NCBI GenBank assembly: GCA_030598325.1
Contig: JAUVQE010000002.1
Span: 1-37,970, forward strand
From: Nitrospirota bacterium
Lineage (GTDB): Bacteria > Patescibacteriota > Gracilibacteria > UBA1369 > LOWO2-01-FULL-3
Direction of reading: 5' to 3'
DNA length: 37,970 nucleotides
A program made the translations under genes and the position numbers. The notes under the pieces were generated by a model. It was not told the origin of the DNA. It did not search any database and saw nothing but the letters and a program-made list of their open reading frames with translations. Positions 1-37,970 of this stretch are shown here, one piece after another (within the stretch, counting starts at the first letter, position 1; each line of letters starts with the position of its first letter).

Positions 1-2556
1 AAGCTCCGTGAATTATCTATAAAAGTGATTCGCCATCTTGGAGTGATCGGGGAATGTAATATTCAGTTCGCGCTGGATCCTTTGAGCGAAGATTATCGTG
101 TGATTGAAGTGAATGCCCGGCTTAGTCGTTCGTCAGCTTTGGCGTCGAAGGCAACGGGTTATCCTTTGGCTCATGTAGCCGCGAAGCTGGCTCTCGGATA
201 TACCCTGCCGGAACTTAAAAATGCTGTGACCAAGACCACTACCGCTTGTTTTGAGCCGGCTATGGATTATCTGGCTCTTAAGATTCCTCGTTGGGATCTG
301 AATAAATTCCGCATGGTTTCGAAGCGGATTACTACCGAGATGAAATCGGTAGGGGAAATCATGGCACTTGGGCGGAGTTTTGAGGAAGTAATGCAGAAAG
401 GGCTCCGGATGTTACAGGTTGGATTGCACGGGTTGGTCGCGAATGAGGACGTAAAGATTGAATCGAAGCGCATTCAACAAGATATTGAAAATCCCACTCC
501 GAAGCGGATTTTGGTGGTTGCGGAGGCTCTGCGTAAAGGCTGGACGGTTGAAAAAATTTCAAAAATTAGCGGAATTGATAAGTGGTTTTTGGATAAATTG
601 AAAAATATTGTTGTGATGGAAAAGAAGTTGAAGCGGACTGATGATATGCGTCCGGAACTCATGCTGGAAGCAAAAAAGATGGGATTTTCAGATAAACAGA
701 TTGGATATTTGTATAGCTGGGATGAGCTTTCAGTTCGTGAAAAACGAAAGGCGATGGGAATTTTCCCATCAATTAAGCAGATCGATACTTTGGCGGCGGA
801 ATATCCGGCGGATACGAATTATTTGTATCTGACTTATCATGGAGACGGGCATGACGTTCGGCCTGGGTGTCGGAAAAAAGTGATTGTGCTGGGGAGCGGG
901 GCTTATTGTATCGGGTCGAGTGTGGAGTTTGACTGGTGTTGCGTGAACGCGGTAAAAACCGCCCAGAAAGCGGGGTATGAGACTGTGATGATTAATTATA
1001 ATCCGGAGACGGTTTCGACTGATTATGATATTTGCGACAAGTTGTATTTTGACGAGTTGTCGCTGGAACGGGTGCTGGATATTTGTGATTTTGAGCGGGG
1101 CGAGCCCGCCGGAGGCTCGCAGAGTCAGCTCCCGGGCACCCGCAGGGTCGGGACAGGCGGCGGAGCCCTTTCTAAGAATAGTGTGGAAGGAGTGATTGTG
1201 TCGACCGGAGGGCAAATTGCAAATAATTTGGCTCTTAAATTGCATAAAGCGGGGATTCGAATTCTTGGTACACACCCATCGAATATTGATCGGGCCGAGG
1301 ATCGGCATAAGTTTTCGGCGATGTTAGATAAATTGGAGATTGATCAGCCGAAGTGGAAGGAATTGGCGCAGGTTTCGGATGTTTACAAATTCGTAGGTGA
1401 CCCGTCCGGCGTCGGGCGTGGTGTGGGATATCCGGTTTTGGTAAGGCCTTCTTATGTTTTGTCGGGAGCGGCAATGAGTGTTGCTTATAGCCGTGAAGAA
1501 TTGGAGAGATTTTTGGGAAAGGCGGCGAAGATTTCGAAAGAGGCGCCTGTTGTAGTTTCGAAATTTGAGACCGGAGCGAAGGAAATAGAAATAGATGCGG
1601 TCGCTCATAAAGGGCGGGTTGTGATTTACGCGATCGCGGAGCATATTGAGAATGCGGGTGTGCATAGCGGGGACGCGACAATTGTTTTGCCTCCGCAGAA
1701 ACTTTATATCGAAACTATTCGTCGAATTAAAGTTATTGCGAAACAAATTGCGGAAGAACTTGATATAAGTGGCCCATTTAATATTCAATTTCTGGCAAAA
1801 AATAATCGGGTGATGGTTATTGAATGTAATCTCCGATCATCTCGTTCGTTTCCATTTTCGTCAAAGGTTACCGGATATAATTTTATTGAAATCGCGACAG
1901 AATCGATGTTGGCAAAATCTACCGGACGCATGAGCGCGAAGAGTAAAAAACGGCTTACTTATAGGAATTACAAGACTTTGGATTTGGATCATGTTGGAGT
2001 GAAAGCTCCGCAGTTTAGTTTCCCTAGATTGAAGGGAGCGGATCCGGTGCTGGGAGTGGAGATGGCGTCGACTGGTGAAGTTGCGTGTTTTGGTGATGAC
2101 CTTTATGAAGCGTTTTTGAAATCGATGATAAGTGTTGGGTTTGAATTACCGAAGAAAGGGATTTTATTTAGCGTTGGTGGGGTGGAGGCAAAGGCTGATA
2201 TTTTGCCTGCCGCAGAAAAGTTTGCAAAGATGGGATTTGAGATTTTTGGGACGGAGGGAACAAGTGAATTTTTTAAGGAGAATGGTTTGAAGTGTAAAGT
2301 TTTACATAAAATCTCTACGGGTAAGTCGCCCGGACTTTTGGACGGAATGATGGAGAAAGATTTTGACCTAATTGTAAACATTCCAAACGCATATTCGCGA
2401 ACATCTGTGACGGATGGGTACCTAATACGGCGGAAGTCAGTGGATTTGAACATTCCTTTGATTACAAATGTGCAGGTGGCGGGAATTGTGGCGGAAGCGC
2501 TTAGTCGGTACGGTGTGGAAGATTTGAAGGTGAAGGATTTGGATGGGTATTTTTAA
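1..2556 (+). CDS. carB: carbamoyl-phosphate synthase large subunit (5' end off window)
   Basis: The frame is open from nt 1 (KLRELSIKVIRHLGVIGECNIQFALDP...), so the ORF-track start at 25 is internal. There are two ATP-grasp signatures (IEVNARLSRSSALASKATGYPLA and VIECNLRSSRSFPFSSKVTGYNF). GVIVSTGGQ...GYPVLVRPSYVLSG and an MGS-like C-terminal domain are present. Stop TAA at 2554-2556. Confidence 0.95.
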   Translation, partial: KLRELSIKVIRHLGVIGECNIQFALDPLSEDYRVIEVNARLSRSSALASKATGYPLAHVAAKLALGYTLPELKNAVTKTTTACFEPAMDYLALKIPRWDLNKFRMVSKRITTEMKSVGEIMALGRSFEEVMQKGLRMLQVGLHGLVANEDVKIESKRIQQDIENPTPKRILVVAEALRKGWTVEKISKISGIDKWFLDKLKNIVVMEKKLKRTDDMRPELMLEAKKMGFSDKQIGYLYSWDELSVREKRKAMGIFPSIKQIDTLAAEYPADTNYLYLTYHGDGHDVRPGCRKKVIVLGSGAYCIGSSVEFDWCCVNAVKTAQKAGYETVMINYNPETVSTDYDICDKLYFDELSLERVLDICDFERGEPAGGSQSQLPGTRRVGTGGGALSKNSVEGVIVSTGGQIANNLALKLHKAGIRILGTHPSNIDRAEDRHKFSAMLDKLEIDQPKWKELAQVSDVYKFVGDPSGVGRGVGYPVLVRPSYVLSGAAMSVAYSREELERFLGKAAKISKEAPVVVSKFETGAKEIEIDAVAHKGRVVIYAIAEHIENAGVHSGDATIVLPPQKLYIETIRRIKVIAKQIAEELDISGPFNIQFLAKNNRVMVIECNLRSSRSFPFSSKVTGYNFIEIATESMLAKSTGRMSAKSKKRLTYRNYKTLDLDHVGVKAPQFSFPRLKGADPVLGVEMASTGEVACFGDDLYEAFLKSMISVGFELPKKGILFSVGGVEAKADILPAAEKFAKMGFEIFGTEGTSEFFKENGLKCKVLHKISTGKSPGLLDGMMEKDFDLIVNIPNAYSRTSVTDGYLIRRKSVDLNIPLITNVQVAGIVAEALSRYGVEDLKVKDLDGYF
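1114..1154 (+). repeat. GC-rich intragenic element, copy A (inside carB, in frame)
   Basis: Contains the exact 41-mer GGCTCGCAGAGTCAGCTCCCGGGCACCCGCAGGGTCGGGAC, identical to the reverse complement of 14316-14356. It is translated as GSQSQLPGTRRVGT. The copy sits in a roughly 28-aa segment absent from E. coli CarB as I recall it. Confidence 0.9.
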
Positions 2557-4718: not shown

Positions 4719-5893
4719 TTTGTGGTTTTTTCTTTTACTATTGACGCTATCGCAAAACATTGGATACCCAATCCTTCTCCGAAGACTGTGCAATTTTCGC
4801 CTGATGTTGCGGTGATGCCAATGCGGCGGGTATTCAGATCAAGCAAAGCTGATAGGTTTTTTCGCATTTTTGGAACCAAGGGGTCAATTTTTGGCTTACC
4901 CGCTTCGATCATTAAGCCCAGAGAGTTTACTTTGAATTTTTCTTTTTTAATTTTTTTCAGAATAATCTGGAGATATTTTTTGCTGTCTTTAACGCCTTTT
5001 TCGCATTGTTCGTCCGCATAAAATCCGAGCGACATTTCTCCGATGGTCTGTGATAACGCGTTGAAAATCGCGTGTAAAATTACATCTCCATCAGAATTTG
5101 CTTTTAATTTGAGTTCGTCGGGGATTTTTATTCCGGCGAGAACAAGTCCTGTTTCCTCTTCCTCAAACATGTGGCTGTCCTGGCCGATACCTATTCGAAA
5201 ATCTTCGGGAAGATCGCCGAGAATCGTCCGGAGCTTTGCGTAATCCGCCTGATTGGTAATTTTGAAATTGTTTTCATGGGCTTTGACGTGGGTTGTTTTC
5301 TGACCTATGGCCTCAAACATCATTGCTTCGTCGGTAACTTCGAGTTTGTTTTTGATTGTGTTGTTTACGGCTTTTTTCATGATTTTGTAGGTGGCTGATT
5401 GTGGGGTTTGTGCTTCGAAAAGTTTTTTTCGGTTGTGGGTCTTGATGATGTGCTGATCGTCAATTTCTTTGATGGTTGAAGTGACATAATGACCGACGAC
5501 GCAAGCTCCGTGTTCTTCGGTTTTTTCTATGGATTCTGAAATTTCTTCGTGGGAGGGGAGGGGATTCGCTCCGTTGTGGACAAGAATAATGTCTGACGGC
5601 TTTGCTTCTGATTCCAGTTCTTTTACGCCTTTTTCAACGGAATTTTGCCTTTGGAGCCCGCCTTGGATGATTTTTGTGACTTTTGGAAAATGATAGGTTT
5701 TCATCAGTTTTGCGATGTTGGATTTATTGATTTTGTTCGCGACAACGGTGATTGTGTCTATTTCCGGGTGATCATTGAAAGTCATTATTGGGTAATATAA
5801 AAGCGGTCTTCCGCAAACAGGAAGAAACATTTTGTCTTTTTTGACAGCCATTCTTTGTCCCTGGCCCGCCGCCAGTATGATTACGTGGTTCAT
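4715..5893 (-). CDS. ispDF: bifunctional IspD/IspF (MEP cytidylyltransferase / MEcPP synthase)
   Basis: The N-terminus VIILAAGQGQRM...KMFLPVCGRPLL is IspD-like. The C-terminal half RIGIGQDSHMF...SDGDVILHAI...ITATSGE is IspF-like. Confidence 0.93.
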   Translation of the reverse strand: MNHVIILAAGQGQRMAVKKDKMFLPVCGRPLLYYPIMTFNDHPEIDTITVVANKINKSNIAKLMKTYHFPKVTKIIQGGLQRQNSVEKGVKELESEAKPSDIILVHNGANPLPSHEEISESIEKTEEHGACVVGHYVTSTIKEIDDQHIIKTHNRKKLFEAQTPQSATYKIMKKAVNNTIKNKLEVTDEAMMFEAIGQKTTHVKAHENNFKITNQADYAKLRTILGDLPEDFRIGIGQDSHMFEEEETGLVLAGIKIPDELKLKANSDGDVILHAIFNALSQTIGEMSLGFYADEQCEKGVKDSKKYLQIILKKIKKEKFKVNSLGLMIEAGKPKIDPLVPKMRKNLSALLDLNTRRIGITATSGENCTVFGEGLGIQCFAIASIVKEKTTK

Positions 5894-6564: not shown

Positions 6565-7591
6565 AATTTATTTTGTTTTGGAGGAATCGTGTAATCAGTT
6601 GCTCTTCTTTTTCGAGGAATTGTGGCATTTTTGTGCGGTCGCGGTTGAAAGCTTCTGTGACGATTTTTATTCCCGGGAATGTTTTGTGGTCGGGGGGGAG
6701 GAGGGTGAATTCGTTTGGTTTGATGGGGCGGATTTCTCTGTTTGGGGCTTTTCCGATGGCTCTTAAGAGGGCGTTTTCGATATGTTCGCGCATGTCGGGT
6801 TTTGCAATATAGGCTACAGGTTGCGGGTCGTTTTCAAATTCTACAATTCCGTGGATTTGGCATTCAGGATGGATGCGGGTTTCGATTTTTTCCAGGGGAA
6901 GATTGAATAAATAATGAGCTTCGATGATTTCAAGGCCTTTGTTTAATAATGATGCCGATTCTATTGTGATTTTTGGTCCCATTTTCCATTTGGGGTGTAT
7001 GAGGGCTTGTTTTGTTGTGATGTTTGAGAGTTCTTCTTTTGTTTTTCCGAAAAATGGTCCGCCCGAGCAGGGAAGAATTATTTTTTTGATTTTTTTGTTT
7101 GGGTGATTCCGGAGGATTTCATAAATTGCGTTGTGTTCGGAATCGAGAGGAATTAGAACCAAATTTTTTGCGAGTCTCATTACTTCTTCCCCTTCTGCAA
7201 CTAACGACTCTTTGTTCCCAAGAAGAACTGTTTTTCCTGATGATAGAGCGGTTTTTGTGGGGTTTATTCCTGAAGTTCCCGAGAGAACATTGATAATAAT
7301 GTCGGCTTCAGGGAGCTGTGCGAGTTTGTTGAGGGCTTGTTCGCCGTCGCGCGATGCTAAAACGATATTTTCGTTGTCCCGACCCTGCGGGTGCCCGGGA
7401 GTTGACTCTGCGAGCCTTTGTTGCCGCGTTGTATTTTTAATTTCTAACTTTTGAGTCTGTTTTTCTAAAAATTTTCTGTTTGAATTTGCGGAAAGTCCGA
7501 TTACGCAAAAATCGTTTGGATATTTTTTTAAAACCTCTAGGGTTTGTGTCCCCAAAGAGCCTGTTGAACCTAGGATAACAACGTTTTTCAT
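6530..7591 (-). CDS. dxr: 1-deoxy-D-xylulose 5-phosphate reductoisomerase
   Basis: MKNVVILGSTGSLGTQTLEVL (NADPH-binding), LLGNKESLV, PLDSEHNAI, IHPKWKMG. It contains element copy B as a 22-codon insertion. Its 3' end overlaps the convergent receiver gene by 35 nt. Confidence 0.93.
   Translation of the reverse strand: MKNVVILGSTGSLGTQTLEVLKKYPNDFCVIGLSANSNRKFLEKQTQKLEIKNTTRQQRLAESTPGHPQGRDNENIVLASRDGEQALNKLAQLPEADIIINVLSGTSGINPTKTALSSGKTVLLGNKESLVAEGEEVMRLAKNLVLIPLDSEHNAIYEILRNHPNKKIKKIILPCSGGPFFGKTKEELSNITTKQALIHPKWKMGPKITIESASLLNKGLEIIEAHYLFNLPLEKIETRIHPECQIHGIVEFENDPQPVAYIAKPDMREHIENALLRAIGKAPNREIRPIKPNEFTLLPPDHKTFPGIKIVTEAFNRDRTKMPQFLEKEEQLITRFLQNKINFTDFLDLARQL
7376..7416 (-). repeat. GC-rich intragenic element, copy B (inside dxr, in frame)
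   Basis: The reverse complement matches the 41-mer at 40/41 positions (G>A at position 15). It is translated as RLAESTPGHPQGRD. Flank similarity to copies C and D extends to roughly 7367-7438. Confidence 0.9.
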
Positions 7592-14187: not shown

Positions 14188-14593
14188 GTTCGTGTGGAAT
14201 CTTTTTTTCTATAGGTTCTTCTTTGGTGTCCTCCAGAGGCGGATGTGACAATGTTTTCGTTTCCACTCCTTCGGTGAGTACGGTGCTTGGCTTTGTACTT
14301 GTGTGCGTGTTCGTTGTCCCGACCCTGCGGGTGCCCGGGAGCTGACTCTGCGAGCCTTTATTGTCGTGTGTTGTGTCGTGGTTTTTTCTATATTTATTTT
14401 TCTTTATTCTTTTTATGATTTTTGATCCGCTTGTTTTTGCTTTTTTAGCGGCTTGTGCAAGTTCTTTTCGTGTTTCTTCCCCTTTTTTTGGCGCAATTGA
14501 TGCTCCCATTACAGAACCTATTGCTCCTCCGATTATTGCCCCCATCAGAACTTTGTCCAGGATATTTCTTTTTTTCTTTTTTTCTTCTCCCAT
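14180..14593 (-). CDS. YtxH-like small membrane-associated protein
   Basis: GAIIGGAIGSVMGASIAPKKGEETRKEL is the YtxH/Gly-zipper motif. It carries element copy C. It overlaps the VanW start by 8 nt and follows rny, so an operon is likely. Confidence 0.7.
   Translation of the reverse strand: MGEEKKKKRNILDKVLMGAIIGGAIGSVMGASIAPKKGEETRKELAQAAKKAKTSGSKIIKRIKKNKYRKNHDTTHDNKGSQSQLPGTRRVGTTNTHTSTKPSTVLTEGVETKTLSHPPLEDTKEEPIEKKIPHEHV
14316..14356 (-). repeat. GC-rich intragenic element, copy C (inside ytxH-like gene, in frame)
   Basis: The reverse complement is 41/41 identical to copy A. It is read in the same frame (GSQSQLPGTRRVGT). It shares the flanks TTCGTT...TTT(A/G)TTG(T/C)CG with copy B. Confidence 0.9.
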
Positions 14594-16153: not shown

Positions 16154-16224
16154 TTTTTTTTAAACATTACGTTGTTCCTTTTAAGAGTATATTCTTTTAA
16201 ACATTTTTTAAACAGTTTTTGCCC

Positions 16225-16271
16225 GGTTAATTTAATTTGTTGTTTTTTGGTTAATTTAATTTGTTGTTTTT
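16225..16271. repeat. tandem direct repeat (2 copies, 24 and 23 nt) GGTTAATTTAATTTGTTGTTTTT(T)
   Basis: Copies at 16225-16248 and 16249-16271, followed by a degenerate third unit GGCTAATTAAAGGGGTTGTTAATTTAAC. The same intergenic region has three TTTTAAACA motifs (16157, 16195, 16206) and a (TA)7T run at 16346-16360. Confidence 0.8.
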
Positions 16272-16437
16272 GGCTAATTAAAGGGGTTGTTAATTTAACA
16301 TATTTTTATTAAAAGTAAACAACCTTCTACTACTATTTTTAGTATTATATATATATATATTATTTGTTTATAAGAAAATTGTGTTGTTTTGGAAGAAATA
16401 ATCTTTATAATGCTTATGGCTTTTAACGAAATAGATT

Positions 16438-22256: not shown

Positions 22257-22273
22257 GCCCGCCGGAGGCGGGC
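22257..22273 (+). terminator. GC-rich hairpin immediately 3' of ssrA
   Basis: GCCCGCC-GGA-GGCGGGC is a perfect 7-bp stem, followed by TCTTTG (a poor U-tract). Its first 13 nt are identical to 1104-1116 in carB. Confidence 0.45.
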
Positions 22274-31696: not shown

Positions 31697-33613
31697 CTAC
31701 TTTTTTTTGATATGGAGCGCAAGAGAGCATTGTTTCCCGAATCTTTCCAGGAATTCCGTTTCGATGAGGCGGAATTTTCCAGGATCTGTCGCGTATATGC
31801 TTAGTGTTCCTATGAATTTCCCGTTGATCATTAAAGGAATCAGGATTAAAGTTTTGAATTTGTGGGATTTTACGAGTTTTATTCCCTGGTGTTTTGTTGA
31901 GGCATCAATGTTCTGGATTATTATTGGTCTGCCGGTTTTGAAGGCGTCTTCCGCGAGACTGTTTTCCAGGGTTATTTTGCTTTTGTCCAGCCATTTGTGA
32001 TTAACGCCAAGACAGGATAGAAGCCTTAAGGTTCTTCCTTTTGGCTCCAGGAGTCTGAGTATCGCTCCGTCACATTTTGTGAGCATGCAGACGGCGCTTA
32101 CTATTAATTTTGCGACTTTGTCTATTTTTTCCTCTGACGTGGCAACGTCCGCGATTTCGTTCATATAATCGGCTTGTCTTTTTTGGATACCGAGCTCTTT
32201 GTATGCGTCCTGTATGGCTTCAAATCTTTTTTGGAGTTCGGTGTTAACTTTTTTTCTGTCGGTTATGTCGTTGTAGATGATGAGGTATCCTTTGGATCTT
32301 CCTTTTGAATCGGTTACTTTTGTTATGGAGAGCGAAACATCTATTTTTTCGCCGTTTTTGTGGTGGCGTTTTGTTTCGAAATTGTGGATGAATTTTTTCT
32401 TTTCAACTTCACTGATTATTTTTTTATTTTCTTCGGTAAGTTTTTTTGGGACGATGAGTGGTGATAATTTTTCGCCAAGAACCTCTTTTTCTTTGTATCC
32501 GAATATTTTCATGGCGCCCGCGTTCCATATCTTGATGTGATGGGTCTTATCCAGGATTACAATTGCTTCTGTTGAATTTCGGACGATTTGTTCTGAGATT
32601 CTTTGTTGTTCACGGTGTTTTTTTACCTGTGTCAGGTTTATATGCATGCCATAAGTTCCTCCGGTGTCGGTTGGCGCGCCAATGACTAGAACAGGAATTT
32701 TTTTCCCTTGTTTTGTGACGTATGTTGCTTCGTATTTTGAAGCTATGCCAACAGCCCTGAGCTTGTGGTGTTTGGTAATAGTTCTTTTGCTTTCTTCGTC
32801 AAAACAAAAGTCGGAAGGCTGTCTGATGCATTTTTCCAGGGAGTAACCCGTTGTTTCTTGGTAGACCGTGTTGGTATATATTGTTTTGTGGTGCTTGTTT
32901 CCGATCCAAAAACAGTGATCCATAGCGTTTGCAAGTCTTATCGAGTGCCTGTATTTGATAATAGTGGCTTGTTCTTTGGGTTTTAATGTTGATTTTATAA
33001 TTTTAAATTCTTTGTAGCCGACCAGCTTCAGTAGTTTATTGTCGTCACGACCCAATTTATCCGTTAACTGCATGTTTGTGAAAATCCCGATTGTGCCGCC
33101 ATTTTCAGTGGGTGTTCCGTTTACCAAAACCGTGATCATTTCTCCGTTTTTTTTGATTATAGTTGCTTCGTATTGAGAGGATTCTCCCTTAGTTCTTAGT
33201 TTGTGATGTTTGGCTACGGCTTTTTTGCTTTCCTCGTCAAAACAGAAGTCGGAACGTTTGCCAAGACATTCTTTTAAAGAATACCCGCTGACTTTTGAAT
33301 AAACAGGATTAGTGTAAATAGTATTGTGTTTTTTGTTGCCGATCCAGAAGCATTGATGCATTTTGTTCGCCAAGTTGATATGTGAGGCGACGTCGATAAT
33401 TGATTGTTTATCTTTGACCGAAAGGTCCTTTATTGTGTTGAAATCTTGTTCTCCAACTATTTTTTTGAGTTCTTTGTCGATGTACTCATATGTGTGCTCT
33501 CTGTCCCGACCCTGCGGGTGCCCGGGAGCTGACTTTGCGAGCCTGCGTTGTCGCGTTATTTTTTCTCTTTGCTGTGTGCCTGGTTGTTGCGTTTTGTTTG
33601 TAGTAAATTCCAT
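31697..33613 (-). CDS. PAS-PAS-PAS-GAF sensor protein without recognisable output domain
   Basis: Two tandem, highly similar PAS-like units (CFWIGNK.H.TIYTN.VY...GYSL..C....DFCFDEESK....KHHKLR). A third PAS unit follows (AIVILDKTHHIKIWNAGAMKIFGYKEKEVLG...PAC), then a C-terminal GAF-like domain. It carries element copy D near the N-terminus. ATG 33613 is preferred over GTG 33637, which lies inside the -10 of a candidate promoter. Confidence 0.85.
   Translation of the reverse strand: MEFTTNKTQQPGTQQREKITRQRRLAKSAPGHPQGRDREHTYEYIDKELKKIVGEQDFNTIKDLSVKDKQSIIDVASHINLANKMHQCFWIGNKKHNTIYTNPVYSKVSGYSLKECLGKRSDFCFDEESKKAVAKHHKLRTKGESSQYEATIIKKNGEMITVLVNGTPTENGGTIGIFTNMQLTDKLGRDDNKLLKLVGYKEFKIIKSTLKPKEQATIIKYRHSIRLANAMDHCFWIGNKHHKTIYTNTVYQETTGYSLEKCIRQPSDFCFDEESKRTITKHHKLRAVGIASKYEATYVTKQGKKIPVLVIGAPTDTGGTYGMHINLTQVKKHREQQRISEQIVRNSTEAIVILDKTHHIKIWNAGAMKIFGYKEKEVLGEKLSPLIVPKKLTEENKKIISEVEKKKFIHNFETKRHHKNGEKIDVSLSITKVTDSKGRSKGYLIIYNDITDRKKVNTELQKRFEAIQDAYKELGIQKRQADYMNEIADVATSEEKIDKVAKLIVSAVCMLTKCDGAILRLLEPKGRTLRLLSCLGVNHKWLDKSKITLENSLAEDAFKTGRPIIIQNIDASTKHQGIKLVKSHKFKTLILIPLMINGKFIGTLSIYATDPGKFRLIETEFLERFGKQCSLALHIKKK
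33503..33543 (-). repeat. GC-rich intragenic element, copy D (inside PAS/GAF gene, in frame)
   Basis: The reverse complement matches the 41-mer at 40/41 positions (G>A at position 9). It is read in the same frame as the dxr copy (RLAKSAPGHPQGRD). The shared flank GTTG(T/C)CGCGTT..ATTTTT extends to about 33565. Confidence 0.9.
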
Positions 33614-33637
33614 ATATGGCTTGTAAAAGGCAATCAC

Positions 33638-35551: not shown

Positions 35552-37970
35552 TTATTTTCCTCTGATTTTGCCGCCGAGCGATTCGAGGTTTTTGAAGATT
35601 GCTGATTGGGTTTTTGCCATATCTTTGTCTGTGAGGGTCCGGTCCGGAGTCTGCAGGACTATTTTGAAGGCGACCGCTTTTTTGTCTTTTTCCAGGTTTT
35701 CGCCTTCGTAGATGTCGAAAAGCTCGACTTGTTTTATTAATTCTTTGTTTGCTTTGAAAATAGCTTCTTTTATGGTTTTGATTTCTTTGGTTTTGTCGAC
35801 TATCACTGAAACGTCTAGGAGAATGCTTGGGAATTTTGGTAATGATTTGTAGCTTCTGAGTGGCTGGTCGAGCAAAAGAGCTTTCGTGAAATTGAGTTCA
35901 AATATTGCGATTGAATATCCATCCAGTTCGTGATTTTTTTGGACCTGTGGATGCAGGGTGAATACGTGCGCTAGTGTTTCACCGCTTTTACCTAAATATG
36001 CCAGGGCTTTTGTCGGATGTCCGTATGGGCAATTTTTGAGATCGTTTACCACTTTGACCTTTTTTATATTGAATTTTTCGAAGAATGCCTCCACCGCTCC
36101 TTTTGCTGTGTAGAATGGATCGTCGCTTTTACCTTTTTTTAGAATTACTCCGCCGACGTATTTTTCTTCTAATGGGAAATATTCGCCGATTTCTTTGTAA
36201 GTTCGGCCGATTTCGTAAATTTTGAAATTGTCGAAATATTTTATGTTGAGTTGTAGATTTTTGAGTAAGTTTGGTGAGAGAGATGTTCGTAGGTGAGTTT
36301 GGTCTTCAGATAAATAATTGAGTAATTTGACGTGATTTTTTTCGTCCAGTAAACAGTTTTTAACTTCTTTTTCTCCGTAAAATGAGTAATTGTAGACTTC
36401 GTCGAAGCCGAGCGCGTACGAGAAGAGTTCTCTTGCCCGATGTTTTTTGAATCTTTCGGTGTTTTCTTCCGGTAGGCGGGTTGGAAGCATTGGAAGTGTG
36501 GAGGGGATGTTTTCGTATCCGTAAATTCTTACTACTTCTTCTATTAAGTCGTCTTCGATTAGTACGTCTTTTGTTGAACGGAAGGACGGAACTGTGACTT
36601 CGAAGATGTTTTCGCTTCGCTGCCGCGTGTTGCTTGAAACTTCGAATTCCAGACTTTCCAGGATTTTTTTAATTTCTTTGTCGGAAATGTCTACGCCGAT
36701 TTTTGAGCGGGTTTTATCGGTATTTAGTTTAATTTTTATTGGTTTTTTGTTGAATTTTTCGGTGTCGGTAATAGGTCCCGCTATTTTTGCATTCGGGCAG
36801 ATTTTGAGGATTATTTCTGCTGCTCTTTTGATCGCGAGTTCTGCCATGTGTGGATCCAGAGATTTTTCGAATCTTTGTACCGCGTCAGTTCGGATTCCAA
36901 GTTTTGTTGATGATTTTCTGATGGACGTGGCATTGAAATTTGCGGATTCCAGGATGATTGAAGTTGTTCCGGAATTTATTTCGCTGTTTTCTCCACCGAT
37001 TATGCCGGCAACCGCTACAGGTTTTTCGTGATCGGCGATTACGAGCATATTTTCTGTGAGTTCGCGTTTTTTTCCGTCGAGTGAGGTGATTTTTTCACCT
37101 TTTTTTGCGCGACGGATTATTATTCCTCCCTTTATATAGTTTTTATCGAATGCGTGCATTGGTTGTCCGAGTTCTGTCATCACGTAGTTTGTGACGTCAA
37201 CGATGTTGTTGTGGTTTCCGTGTCCGGTTGCTTTTAGGCGTTTTTTTAGCCAGGGGGGAGAGTCTTCAACTTTAATATTATTAATAATTAGTCCGCAGTA
37301 TCTTGGGCAAAGGTCATAATCTTTGATTTTTACGTCGATTGTTTCTCCTTTTTTTGGAGGAGTGAATTTTGGTTTGAGTTCTTTGAATTTGTATCCTTTT
37401 ATTGCTGAAATTTCTCTCGCGATTCCGTAGTGTCCCCAAAGGTCTGGGCGATGAGTTAGTGATTTGTTGTCGAATTCGATCACGGTGTCTGTTCCTCCAA
37501 AAAGTTTTGCGAGAGGAGTTCCCGGAGTTGGCTTTTGCGCCGAAAGATCGAGAATATCTTCAGGGCCTTCGTCCGGATTTTCCAGGCCTATTTCGGCGCT
37601 TTGGCATATCATTCCATAGCTTTCTTCTCCACGGATTTTTGCTTTTTCGAGTGTGACCGGTTCACCTTCTCCATGCCATCGTACTTTTGCTCCTGGTAGA
37701 GCGACCGCGACACACATTCCTTCTCGTAAATTTTCTCCTCCGCATACAATTTGATGGGTAGATTTGCCTACAGAAGTTTTCGCAATTTTTAATTTGTCCG
37801 CATTTGGGTGGGGGAGTAGTTCTGTTACATGTCCCACAACCATATTTTCGAATTTTTCCGTGTCGTTTATTACGCCCTCTGTCTCGGCGGTTTTCAGCGT
37901 AAGTTCGTCCGCCAGATCACGCGGATCCGCATTCTTTGGAATTTCAACGAAATCTTTTAGCCAATCAAGT
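35552..37970 (-). CDS. pheT: phenylalanine--tRNA ligase beta subunit (5' end just off window)
   Basis: The frame stays open upstream of the ORF-track Met (37843) to the window edge: LDWLKDFVEIPKNADPRDLADELTLKTAETEGV, the canonical PheT N-terminus. tRNA-binding (EMAP-like), B3/4, B5 and FDX-ACB C-terminal domains are recognisable. Confidence 0.95.
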   Translation of the reverse strand, partial: LDWLKDFVEIPKNADPRDLADELTLKTAETEGVINDTEKFENMVVGHVTELLPHPNADKLKIAKTSVGKSTHQIVCGGENLREGMCVAVALPGAKVRWHGEGEPVTLEKAKIRGEESYGMICQSAEIGLENPDEGPEDILDLSAQKPTPGTPLAKLFGGTDTVIEFDNKSLTHRPDLWGHYGIAREISAIKGYKFKELKPKFTPPKKGETIDVKIKDYDLCPRYCGLIINNIKVEDSPPWLKKRLKATGHGNHNNIVDVTNYVMTELGQPMHAFDKNYIKGGIIIRRAKKGEKITSLDGKKRELTENMLVIADHEKPVAVAGIIGGENSEINSGTTSIILESANFNATSIRKSSTKLGIRTDAVQRFEKSLDPHMAELAIKRAAEIILKICPNAKIAGPITDTEKFNKKPIKIKLNTDKTRSKIGVDISDKEIKKILESLEFEVSSNTRQRSENIFEVTVPSFRSTKDVLIEDDLIEEVVRIYGYENIPSTLPMLPTRLPEENTERFKKHRARELFSYALGFDEVYNYSFYGEKEVKNCLLDEKNHVKLLNYLSEDQTHLRTSLSPNLLKNLQLNIKYFDNFKIYEIGRTYKEIGEYFPLEEKYVGGVILKKGKSDDPFYTAKGAVEAFFEKFNIKKVKVVNDLKNCPYGHPTKALAYLGKSGETLAHVFTLHPQVQKNHELDGYSIAIFELNFTKALLLDQPLRSYKSLPKFPSILLDVSVIVDKTKEIKTIKEAIFKANKELIKQVELFDIYEGENLEKDKKAVAFKIVLQTPDRTLTDKDMAKTQSAIFKNLESLGGKIRGK

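What the first reader, a model, noticed from the sequence alone, without database searches (positions are those of the whole stretch)
7367..7432. A near-identical 41-nt GC-rich element sits in frame inside four unrelated genes (family overview; the dxr copy is a clean 66-nt insertion)
Seen directly: GGCTCGCAGAGTCAGCTCCCGGGCACCCGCAGGGTCGGGAC occurs at 1114-1154 (+). Its reverse complement occurs at 7376-7416, 14316-14356 and 33503-33543. Two copies are 41/41 identical. The other two each differ by one G>A (position 15 in dxr, position 9 in the PAS gene). The core has 31/41 G+C in a visibly AT-rich window.

All four copies lie inside ORFs of unrelated proteins (CarB, Dxr, YtxH-like, PAS/GAF). 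All are in sense orientation relative to the host gene, and none interrupts the frame. Two different reading frames are used: GSQSQLPGTRRVGT in carB and ytxH, and RLA(E/K)S(T/A)PGHPQGRD in dxr and the PAS gene. Near-perfect nucleotide identity across different frames means the conservation acts at the DNA/RNA level, not the protein level.

In Dxr, removing the 22 codons TTRQQRLAESTPGHPQGRDNEN leaves KLEIKN-IVLASRDGEQAL. That aligns without a gap to E. coli EFSPRYAVMDDEASAKLL (recalled from memory), so this is an insertion. The core contains the palindrome CCCGGG and a small hairpin ACCC-GCA-GGGT nested in CCCG...CGGG.

The behaviour resembles Rickettsia palindromic elements (in-frame insertions) or mitochondrial GC clusters/byp elements. 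I know of no described equivalent in this kind of genome. Caveat: 4/4 sense orientation is only weak statistics, since chance is about 1/16 and the antisense strand has a TGA in one frame.
Basis: partly seen in the sequence, partly recalled or inferred. Interest (0 to 1): 0.85.

Follow-up and report, generated by a model that had tools for sequence, protein, structure and literature searches.

The report
Mini GC-rich repeat inserted inside genes
A GC-rich repeat of about 60-80 bases has copied itself into loops and tails of unrelated housekeeping proteins, and between genes, in a small group of Peregrinibacteria-like (CPR) bacteria; it almost always points in the direction of transcription and adds about 20-27 amino acids without breaking the genes, a new and unusually small example of the rare "selfish DNA inside protein-coding genes" first seen in Rickettsia.

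Summary
The 41-mer occurs four times in the window (0-1 mismatch; none expected by chance). Each copy is in sense and in frame, in carB, dxr, a ytxH-like gene and a PAS/GAF gene.

All are lineage-specific insertions:
- 16 closest Dxr homologues lack the 22 residues.
- Two relatives (84-86% nt identity) show the empty dxr site.
- About 20 CarB relatives lack the carB insert.
- The AlphaFold model puts the Dxr insert in the only disordered loop.

I found about 18 further copies in related MAGs, metagenome contigs and read assemblies. These include in-frame copies in ssb, rplS, rnpA, ispE, mnmA and a femAB-like gene. Others lie in operon spacers, 5' leaders and across stop codons.

Presence/absence polymorphisms between close relatives show that the element turns over. 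Ten of ten genic copies, and 16 of 17 orientable sites, are co-oriented with transcription. All three sense frames are used.

A central segment differs by genome rather than by flank subfamily, so copies exchange sequence. Core-less remnants also exist.

It matched no Rfam family, phage or plasmid. The window encodes no transposase.

Best reading: a new RPE-like, non-autonomous mobile mini-element, with an unexplained strand bias and an unknown mobilising enzyme.

The parts
1096..1182 (+). carB copy. Core 1114-1154. An 87-nt segment sits between GAG (..DFE) and GTG (VEGV..), where an unoccupied relative has 9 nt. It encodes RGEPAGGSQSQLPGTRRVGTGGGALSKNS.
   Evidence: Human CPS1 has 3 residues where the query has 31. 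14+7 relatives lack it. The L093 empty site is GAA|GGTAAAAGC|GTGGAA. The JBDRIE MAG has a copy at the same codon.
7367..7432 (-). dxr copy. Core 7376-7416. A 66-nt (22-codon) insertion encoding TTRQQRLAESTPGHPQGRDNEN. AAAATA lies on both sides (7432-7437 and 7366-7371) and is a possible target-site duplication.
   Evidence: Alignment A2. Empty sites in L007 and L008. In the AlphaFold model the only segment with pLDDT <50 is residues 52-74.
14304..14370 (-). ytxH-like copy. Core 14316-14356, in the C-terminal tail after the YtxH domain. Encodes ..NKGSQSQLPGTRRVGTTN..
   Evidence: The Pfam YtxH domain covers residues 16-65 only. The syntenic JBDRIE YtxH is 86 aa against 137 aa and lacks the element.
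33491..33557 (-). PAS/GAF-gene copy. Core 33503-33543, in the N-terminal extension. Encodes ..TRQRRLAKSAPGHPQGRDRE..
   Evidence: A promoter-like site lies at 33666-33638(-). ATG 33613 is the only in-frame start other than the GTG at 33637, which lies just past the -10 hexamer, upstream of sequence homologous to the second PAS repeat. The element is therefore translated (inference).
36608..36628 (-). Probable core-less remnant in pheT: ACGCGGCAGCGAAG|CGAAAAC. This equals the element's 5' extension plus direct repeat joined to the 3' tail, in sense, and encodes TRQRSEN.
   Evidence: A 14/14 match to the 5' extension of the L007 ispE copy; about 3e-4 expected by chance (my estimate). The loop is 5 residues longer than in solved PheT structures. 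Not checked against close orthologues.

Best explanation
This is a previously undescribed family of very short (about 60-80 nt), GC-rich, non-autonomous interspersed repeats in a narrow clade of Peregrinibacteria-like CPR bacteria.

Anatomy (shown):
- A variable 5' extension, roughly ACGCGRC..AGCGRAG.
- A near-invariant core. It holds two small stem-loops, GGCTC-GCA-GAGTC and TCCCG(GGC)ACCC-GCA-GGGT CGGGA.
- A short 3' tail that repeats AGCGRAG.

Behaviour (shown): copies are gained and lost on the time scale that separates genomes 84-89% identical.

Why it is tolerated (shown for the sequence, inferred for its role in tolerance): the core, and the full 66-nt dxr unit, have no stop codon in any of the three sense frames. 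Surviving genic copies are multiples of three. A sense-strand insertion therefore adds 20-27 hydrophilic, Gly/Pro/Ser/Arg-rich residues.

Selection (inferred): only insertions in surface loops, tails, leaders and operon spacers persist. Frame-shifted variants persist only outside genes.

Homogenisation (inferred from the pattern): copies within a genome exchange sequence by gene conversion or recombination. This, together with recent spread, keeps the core nearly identical.

Core loss (inferred): deletion between the flanking direct repeats removes the core and leaves small remnants.

Not identified: the mobilising enzyme, which must act in trans. The near-exclusive co-orientation with transcription is real but unexplained. 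It could reflect a strand-specific, possibly single-strand or transcription-linked, insertion mechanism. It could also reflect counter-selection of the antisense orientation.
For: Repeat family:
- 4 copies in the window, none expected by chance.
- 22 copy sequences at 20 distinct sites across five or more independent assemblies.

Insertions:
- dxr.
- carB.
- Disordered-loop placement in Dxr.

Turnover:
- dxr is filled only in the window.
- ispE is filled in L007 and empty in the window.
- The holB-PPIase leader is filled in JBDRIE, empty in the window and L091, and holds a 15-nt remnant in L092.
- Of 5 sites in the syntenic 16-21 kb, only carB is shared.

Tolerance:
- Stop-free sense frames.
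- All three sense frames are used: 5 GSQSQ.., 3 RLAES.., 2 ARRVSS...
- +1 indels occur in 4 intergenic copies and in 0 of 10 genic copies.

Orientation:
- 10/10 genic sites are in sense.
- So are 2 stop-overlapping copies and 4 of 5 co-directional spacer sites.

Exchange between copies:
- The JBDRIE MAG carries CCCGCCAAGGCGGGG in place of GGGCACCCG in 6 of 7 copies, across both flank subfamilies.
- The same flank subfamilies carry the standard segment in other genomes.
- The carB copies of two genomes are 42/42 identical in the shared core parts, although 4-fold sites of carB are only 54% identical.

No match to any known RNA family, phage or plasmid. No transposase among 31 window ORFs.
Against: - No transposase, terminal inverted repeats or autonomous parent was found, so 'mobile' rests on presence/absence patterns only.
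- A target-site duplication is seen in just one case (AAAATA at dxr), and in A-rich DNA.
- The sense bias is not predicted by a purely selfish model, because two of the three antisense frames are also open.
- The carB site is filled in two lineages but empty, with no remnant, in the sister of one of them. This needs precise loss, repeated insertion at one codon, or allele transfer. A sliding-window identity test was inconclusive.
- Gene conversion across arms of only ~20 nt is unusual.
- Copies were found with exact-match seeds, so conservation of the seed regions is partly a product of how they were found.
Confidence: 0.7

Rival explanations
1. The element is a functional, orientation-dependent nucleic-acid signal, spread by a mobile process but kept by selection. 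It could act in RNA, for example as a protein-binding, processing or stabilising site in mRNAs. It could also act as a hairpin on the non-template DNA strand.
For: - 16 of 17 orientable sites are co-oriented with transcription.
- Copies sit in 5' leaders directly after a -10 box and in spacers of the rplP-rpmC, ftsA-ftsZ and grpE-dnaK operons.
- The shared core is 42/42 identical between the carB copies of two genomes, against 54% identity at 4-fold sites.
- Loop substitutions fall on the middle base of both G-N-A triloops. One stem pair changes G-C to A-T on both sides.
Against: - No Rfam match.
- RNA and DNA folds are no more stable than shuffles, with z-scores of +0.5 to -2.
- RNAalifold finds no covarying pair.
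- Sites are polymorphic between close relatives, so no host gene depends on the element.
- Host genes are unrelated.
- The JBDRIE variant destroys the inner stem of hairpin 2.
Confidence: 0.17
2. The insert is removed after transcription, or skipped by the ribosome, as a mini-intron or a byp-like translational bypass element. On this view the host proteins are not really altered.
For: Nothing here directly shows that it is translated.
Against: - All 10 genic copies keep the reading frame and contain no stop.
- Length variants in genes differ by 6 nt, whereas +1 variants occur only outside genes. Such a constraint makes sense only if the sequence is translated.
- No match to intron or ribozyme families.
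- No matching take-off and landing codons at the dxr junctions.
Confidence: 0.03
3. Assembly or binning artefact: a repeat or contaminant stitched into contigs.
For: Two contigs end inside or right after a copy (L006, L007). The repeat therefore does break assemblies.
Against: - In each genic case the same gene continues in frame on both sides.
- Copies occur in at least five independent assemblies: the window, the JBDRIE MEGAHIT MAG, the JAACEU MAG, SDBT01 and Logan runs.
- Copies differ by substitutions, indels and flank subfamilies.
- Empty and filled alleles align base for base.
Confidence: 0.01
4. Ordinary REP/BIME-type extragenic palindromes, mobilised by a RAYT (Y1 HUH) transposase, that now and then stray into genes.
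For: The element is short and GC-rich with small stem-loops. It has many intergenic and operon-spacer copies, one tandem pair, strand specificity and no terminal inverted repeats.
Against: - Half of the sites are intragenic.
- No inverted pairs.
- The unit as a whole is not a palindrome.
- No Y1_Tnp hit among the window ORFs.
- Orientation follows transcription, not one DNA strand: the window has one + copy and three - copies, yet GC skew stays positive across nearly all of the window.
Confidence: 0.08

Closest known systems
Rickettsia palindromic elements (RPE; Ogata et al. 2000, 2002, as summarised in PMC10969869 and PMC3184786)
   Same: - Non-autonomous repeats found both between genes and in frame inside unrelated housekeeping genes.
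- They add a peptide at positions compatible with the fold.
- No associated transposase is known.
- They occur in small, AT-rich genomes.
   Different: - RPEs are ~105-150 bp and palindromic over their length, and are confined to Rickettsia.
- This element is 60-80 nt, is not a palindrome overall and is 75% G+C.
- It occurs in CPR bacteria, uses all three sense frames and is almost never antisense.
- No sequence relationship was tested.
Mitochondrial GC clusters and double-hairpin elements of fungi (recalled: Paquin et al. 2000; the term is confirmed in the literature)
   Same: - Short GC-rich hairpin units in AT-rich genomes.
- Mobile, nested, and sometimes in frame in coding regions.
- Here a separate mini-palindrome, CCCGCC-NN-GGCGGG, appears to have replaced part of the core in one genome.
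   Different: These are organellar elements, with different sequences and a different replication and repair setting.
REP/BIME elements with RAYT transposases
   Same: Short GC-rich stem-loops, high copy number, positions in operon spacers and 3' ends, no terminal inverted repeats.
   Different: - REPs are extragenic and usually occur in inverted pairs.
- REPs are tied to a Y1 transposase gene.
- None of these three features was met here.
MITEs (for example Correia, Nezha, ERIC)
   Same: Non-autonomous, with occasional in-frame fusions and effects on transcripts.
   Different: - MITEs have terminal inverted repeats, defined target-site duplications and a parental IS.
- No TIRs are present here.
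- A duplication is seen in only one case.
- This element is shorter than the MITE and repeat families listed in the reviews read here (about 100 bp and up; PMC3184786).
Mycobacterial interspersed repetitive units (MIRU; recalled from Supply et al. 1997)
   Same: Units of 40-100 bp in spacers of operons, oriented with transcription, with reading frames that overlap the neighbours' stop and start codons. The gspE and gap copies here likewise supply the stop codon.
   Different: MIRUs are tandem, minisatellite-like and intergenic. They are not found inside enzyme-coding sequence.

Membership tests
Rickettsia palindromic elements | In-frame insertion into unrelated protein-coding genes as well as intergenic DNA | tested here: met
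   10 genic in-frame sites and about 10 non-coding or stop-overlapping sites.
Rickettsia palindromic elements | Insert lies at a surface or disordered position compatible with the fold | tested here: met
   - The Dxr insert is the only segment with pLDDT <50.
- The CarB insert replaces a 2-3-residue loop.
- The SSB, L19 and YtxH copies lie in tails outside the Pfam domains.
Rickettsia palindromic elements | Length ~105-150 bp, palindromic along the unit, homologous to RPE-1..10, host genus Rickettsia | tested here: not met
   The unit is 60-80 nt and not self-complementary overall. The host is Peregrinibacteria-like. Sequence homology to RPEs was not tested.
REP/BIME (RAYT-mobilised) | Extragenic location | tested here: not met
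   Half of the sites are inside coding sequence.
REP/BIME (RAYT-mobilised) | Associated Y1 (HUH) transposase gene | tested here: inconclusive
   No Y1_Tnp or any transposase Pfam hit in 31 window ORFs. Complete genomes could not be searched.
MITE | Terminal inverted repeats | tested here: not met
   The ends are CAACG...CAACG (direct) in dxr. No inverted termini appear in the alignment of 21 copies.
MITE | Target-site duplication of fixed length | tested here: inconclusive
   AAAATA flanks the dxr copy. The other filled/empty pairs are too diverged or truncated to judge.
Translational bypass (byp) elements | Length not constrained to triplets; often holds stops; matching take-off and landing codons | tested here: not met
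   All genic copies preserve the frame and are stop-free. +1 variants occur only outside genes.
Known structured RNA families (Rfam 15) | Covariance-model match | tested here: not met
   Only the tmRNA passes the gathering score in the window. Nothing overlaps the element even at E<=10 in L003 and L004.

The most novel reading that the evidence does not exclude
The element is more than tolerated junk. On this reading it is an orientation-dependent signal, acting in mRNA or as hairpins on the non-template DNA strand. It would be inserted by a transcription-linked, transposase-independent or still unknown mechanism. It would be kept nearly identical by selection or by an active copy-correction (homing-like) process, in bacteria with some of the smallest known genomes.
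Probability: 0.17. Interest if true: 0.85.

Novelty: new variant of a known kind. Interest (0 to 1): 0.62.

Why it matters
- Streamlined CPR genomes (about 1 Mb) still carry proliferating selfish DNA inside essential enzymes: CarB, Dxr, IspE, MnmA, RNase P protein, SSB and L19. [quoted passage not shown]
- The element is unusually small, has no inverted ends and no transposase nearby, and follows the direction of transcription in 16 of 17 orientable cases. That makes it a clean system for asking how such units move and why strand matters.
- Practical points: it breaks metagenomic assemblies, since contigs end in it. It adds spurious 20-27-residue loops to protein alignments and structure models. 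It also gives natural maps of insertion-tolerant sites and strain-level markers for these uncultured bacteria.

Tried and rejected
1. Peptide census. A 48-aa query joining the three frame translations found no candidates in the word-indexed protein search. A profile of the two GSQSQLPGTRRVGT contexts, run against 1.84 billion representatives, gave only two unrelated repetitive proteins. The peptide is therefore not a widespread motif. Clustering at 50% identity would hide most carriers, so this is weak negative evidence.
2. Rfam at gathering and permissive thresholds gave nothing at the element.
3. Phage and plasmid blastn and two viral-contig scans gave nothing, so no vector was identified.
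4. Thermodynamics. RNA and DNA folds of the copies are not better than shuffles, and the two strands fold equally well. RNAalifold finds only invariant pairs. My idea that G-N-A triloops make the sense strand special rests on recalled literature and is not supported by these energy models.
5. Target-site duplications beyond dxr were ambiguous.
6. Recombination as the source of the shared carB insert. In a sliding-window identity test, JBDRIE is as close to the window as to its sister upstream of the insert, and closer to its sister downstream. The signal is noisy and not decisive.
7. Replication origin next to dnaN as an explanation for the mixed strands. There is no DnaA-box cluster and no GC-skew switch.
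8. Four exact 20-mer hits in Amycolatopsis, Bryobacterales, Planctomicrobium and Lentilactobacillus are chance matches lacking the rest of the element.
9. The window's own contig is not on record in the contig index.
Full report
**1. The observation**

The 41-mer GGCTCGCAGAGTCAGCTCCCGGGCACCCGCAGGGTCGGGAC occurs four times in the window:

| Position | Strand | Mismatches |
|---|---|---|
| 1114-1154 | + | 0 |
| 14316-14356 | - | 0 |
| 7376-7416 | - | 1 |
| 33503-33543 | - | 1 |

None of 100 shuffles gave a match. The core has 31/41 G+C in a window of 30-47% GC.

Each copy lies in sense inside a long ORF. Pfam identifies the ORFs as CarB, Dxr, a YtxH-like protein and a PAS/GAF protein. The rest of the window is an ordinary chromosome segment: recR, ispE, ispDF, infC, rplT, holB, RNase Y, dnaN, mfd, tmRNA, a PBP and pheT. 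None of the 31 ORFs scanned is a transposase.

The nearest homologues of Dxr and CarB are named Candidatus Peregrinibacteria or Peribacteria. The two closest MAGs are labelled Nitrospirota/Nitrospirae. I take the organism to be a Peregrinibacteria-like CPR bacterium.

**2. The copies are insertions**

*dxr.* The 16 closest homologues (59-87% identity) all have a clean gap of 20-22 residues where the window encodes TTRQQRLAESTPGHPQGRDNEN.

Two orthologous loci, 84% and 86% identical in DNA, read ..ATTAAAAAC ATA GTT.. and ..ATCAAAAAC ACA GTT... The window reads ..ATTAAAAATA|CAACGCGG...GGGACAACGAAAATA|TCGTT... This is a 66-nt insertion at 7367-7432, flanked by AAAATA on both sides.

An AlphaFold model of the protein is confident overall (mean pLDDT 86.5, pTM 0.87). 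Its only segment below pLDDT 50 is residues 52-74, which is essentially the insert (54-75). It lies between helix 39-48 and strand 75-79.

*carB.* Human CPS1 has 3 residues where the query has 31. Fourteen relatives from species genomes and seven from the protein database have only 2-8 residues there. One exception is L010, which has an unrelated 22-residue insert in the same loop.

*ytxH.* The syntenic JBDRIE YtxH is 86 aa against 137 aa in the window and lacks the element.

*PAS gene.* A promoter-like site lies at 33666-33638(-). The only in-frame start, other than the GTG at 33637 just past the -10 hexamer, upstream of sequence homologous to the second PAS repeat is ATG 33613. The element is therefore part of the translated N-terminal extension (inference).

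**3. The family beyond the window**

I scanned public collections with three exact seeds (a 3' 24/26-mer, a 5' 23-mer and a 5' 20-mer). I also ran an nhmmer profile over 431 kb of fetched loci.

Further copies appeared only in a few related assemblies:
- the JBDRIE01 MAG (7 copies)
- the JAACEU01 MAG (4 copies)
- the SDBT01 metagenome (5 copies)
- two Logan read assemblies (1 copy each)

Four other 20-mer hits, in GC-rich or unrelated genomes, lack the rest of the element and are chance matches. Viral contigs, phages and plasmids gave nothing.

Contexts:

| Context | Sites |
|---|---|
| In frame and in sense inside a gene | ssb (tail), rplS (tail), rnpA (inside the domain), ispE, mnmA (splits the HUP domain), a femAB-like gene (splits the domain) |
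| Overlapping a stop codon, in sense, with the element supplying the last codons and the stop | a T2SSE/GspE-like ATPase, gap |
| In sense in a co-directional spacer | rplP-rpmC, ftsA-ftsZ (two tandem units), grpE-dnaK, upstream of rplI |
| In a divergent promoter region, in the leader of the downstream gene | dxr in L093, the PPIase gene, a glycosyltransferase gene |
| Antisense | one copy, just after the stop of a DHH phosphoesterase gene (L005) |

Some gene names for the spacer sites rest on motifs I recognised by eye, not on Pfam.

**4. Anatomy**

The alignment of 21 copies shows a near-invariant core: GGCTCG-CAGAGTCAG(C/T)TCCC - centre - CAGGGTCGGGAC.

Before the core is a variable 14-16-nt extension. 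In the window's three minus-strand copies and in L007 it reads ACGCGRCA(A/G)C(A/G)(A/C)A. Elsewhere it is GCGNAGCC-GAA or GCGAGC-TAA, which can pair with GGCTCGC.

After the core is a tail, AG(G)CGRAG.. or AACGAA... This tail repeats the AGCGRAG that immediately precedes the core.

There are no terminal inverted repeats.

Two small stem-loops are possible: GGCTC-GCA-GAGTC and TCCCG(GGC)ACCC-GCA-GGGT CGGGA. Evidence for structure is thin:
- Fold energies are no better than those of shuffled sequences (z from +0.5 to -2).
- The two strands fold equally well in the DNA model.
- RNAalifold finds only invariant pairs.
- In favour of structure: three loop substitutions all fall on the middle base (GCA to GAA or GTA), and the L093 copy changes one stem pair from G-C to A-T on both sides.

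**5. Why it does not break genes**

The 41-mer, and the whole 66-nt dxr unit, are free of stop codons in all three sense frames. One of the three antisense frames has TGA.

All three sense frames are in use:
- GSQSQLPGTRRVGT in 5 genes
- RLAESAPGHPQGRD in 3 genes
- ARRVSS.. in 2 genes

Genic copies differ in length only by multiples of three; the JBDRIE variant is +6 nt. Four intergenic copies carry a +1 indel and no genic copy does.

Being 'in frame' is therefore a built-in property of a 3n-long, stop-free unit, and selection for translatability then maintains it. This argues against splicing or ribosomal bypass.

**6. Turnover**

- dxr is filled only in the window.
- ispE is filled in L007, where the contig ends inside the element. 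It is empty at exactly that position in the window.
- The holB-PPIase leader is filled in JBDRIE and empty in the window and L091. In L092 it holds the 15-nt GCGCGGTAGCGTAAA, which is the 5' extension plus one direct repeat without the core.
- The window's pheT contains ACGCGGCAGCGAAG|CGAAAAC in sense. This is a 14/14 match to the 5' extension of the ispE copy joined to the usual tail, exactly 42 nt short of a full unit. I read both short sequences as remnants left when the hairpin-bearing core is deleted between the flanking direct repeats (inference).
- In the 16-21 kb that is syntenic between the window and JBDRIE, only one of five occupied sites is shared.

**7. Exchange between copies**

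Six of seven JBDRIE copies carry CCCGCCAAGGCGGGG where all other genomes have GGGCACCCG. This holds across both flank subfamilies (GAGCTAAGG..CAGTT..AGGCGAGNNTAG and CGAAGG..CAGCT..AGCGRAG). The same subfamilies occur with the standard centre in other genomes. The centre therefore tracks the genome and not the lineage of the copy, which points to gene conversion or recombination among copies.

The inserted 15-mer is itself a small palindrome. It also occurs alone in these genomes, which suggests nesting.

carB is filled at the same codon in the window and in JBDRIE. The shared parts of the core are 42/42 identical, while carB as a whole is 81.6% identical and its 4-fold sites only 54%.

L093 is the sister of JBDRIE (CarB 94.4% identical in protein, against 89% to the window). 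Yet it has a clean empty site, GAA|GGTAAAAGC|GTGGAA. This needs one of three things: precise loss, two insertions at one codon, or transfer of the allele. A sliding-window identity comparison hints at a mosaic upstream of the insert but is not decisive.

**8. Orientation**

All 10 genic sites are in sense. If the five open frames were equally acceptable, the chance of this would be 0.6^10 = 0.006.

Adding the two stop-overlapping copies and the five co-directional spacer sites gives 16 sense to 1 antisense (sign test about 1e-4).

Within the window the copies lie on both DNA strands, one + and three -. GC skew stays positive across nearly all of the window, and there is no DnaA-box cluster by dnaN. 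The bias therefore follows transcription and not replication.

I cannot explain it from the sequence. Peptide toxicity is unlikely to account for it, and the RNA and DNA energy models are symmetric. It points either to a strand-specific insertion mechanism or to an orientation-dependent cost or function.

**9. Comparison with known systems**

The behaviour matches the Rickettsia palindromic elements. It also fits the wider observation that small repeats can fuse in frame with genes (PMC10969869, PMC3184786). It resembles mitochondrial GC clusters and double-hairpin elements as well (plus my recollection).

It is not a member of any of these families. It is half the size of an RPE or less, is not palindromic overall, lacks the inverted ends of MITEs and is not extragenic like REPs.

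My searches found no report of such an element in Peregrinibacteria or other CPR bacteria. The paper on the complete Peribacteria genomes mentions only indels of tens of bp in twelve proteins and no mobile elements.

**10. Verdict**

It is best filed as a new variant of the 'selfish repeat inside protein-coding genes' kind. Three features go beyond the known examples:
- its extreme brevity
- the near-absolute co-orientation with transcription
- genome-wide homogenisation of a 60-nt unit

The mobilising machinery and the cause of the strand bias remain open.

Noticed in passing
window 36608-36628 (-), inside pheT (35552-37843): The 21-nt ACGCGGCAGCGAAGCGAAAAC equals the element's 5' extension plus direct repeat joined to its 3' tail, with the 42-nt core missing. 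It encodes TRQRSEN in a loop 5 residues longer than in solved PheT structures. It is probably an excision or deletion remnant.
   Followed up: partly
window about 1405-1425 (+), inside carB: A second lineage-specific GC-rich insertion of 21 nt (..CCGTCCGGCGTCGGGCGTGGT.., encoding PSGVGRG). It is absent from the JBDRIE and L093 CarB and from all other relatives aligned. It shares GTCGGG with the element but is otherwise different.
   Followed up: partly
window 22257-22273; L004 2406-2423; L097 4801-4815; L100 1985-2000: A recurrent mini-palindrome, CCCGCC-(2-3 nt)-GGCGGG, occurs on its own. One instance lies right after the tmRNA gene, where it looks like a terminator stem. The same palindrome replaces part of the element's core in the JBDRIE genome.
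   Followed up: partly
L104 1640-1692 (-); L100 2028-2067 (-): Another GC-rich double-hairpin repeat: GGCCCGAA(A)GGGTCATG(C/T)CGC(G/T)GGC(A/C)CCCGAAGGG... It is weakly similar to the element's second hairpin and suggests a wider superfamily of such units in these genomes.
   Followed up: no
L092 about 4735-4750 (holB-PPIase spacer): The 15-nt GCGCGGTAGCGTAAA sits at the position where the JBDRIE genome has a full element and where the window and L091 have nothing. It looks like a core-less remnant.
   Followed up: partly
L010 1501-2160 (carB of Peregrinibacteria NC_groundwater_1792): A different, unrelated ~22-residue insertion (EAHENRRQGTGANVKLVKKGDN) sits in the same CarB loop. This loop is a general hot spot for tolerated insertions.
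   Followed up: no
L104 4572-5264 (+): A free-standing ORF of the LAGLIDADG type (Pfam LAGLIDADG_3) starts 9 nt from the 5' end of an element copy, in divergent orientation. This may be coincidence.
   Followed up: no
window 16154-16437: A very AT-rich (about 30% GC) spacer upstream of dnaN, with 2-3 direct repeats of GGTTAATTTAATTTGTTGTTTTT and a (TA)n run. It has no DnaA-box cluster and no GC-skew switch, so it is not evidently an origin.
   Followed up: partly
L001, L009, L090, L096-L100, L103, L104 (JBDRIE01 and JAACEU01 MAGs): These MAGs are deposited as Nitrospirota/Nitrospirae. Their gene order matches the window, and their Dxr and CarB group with Candidatus Peregrinibacteria, so they are probably mislabelled.
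   Followed up: partly
L006 13442-13607; L007 4199-4239: These contigs end inside or just after an element copy. The repeat fragments metagenome assemblies of these organisms.
   Followed up: no
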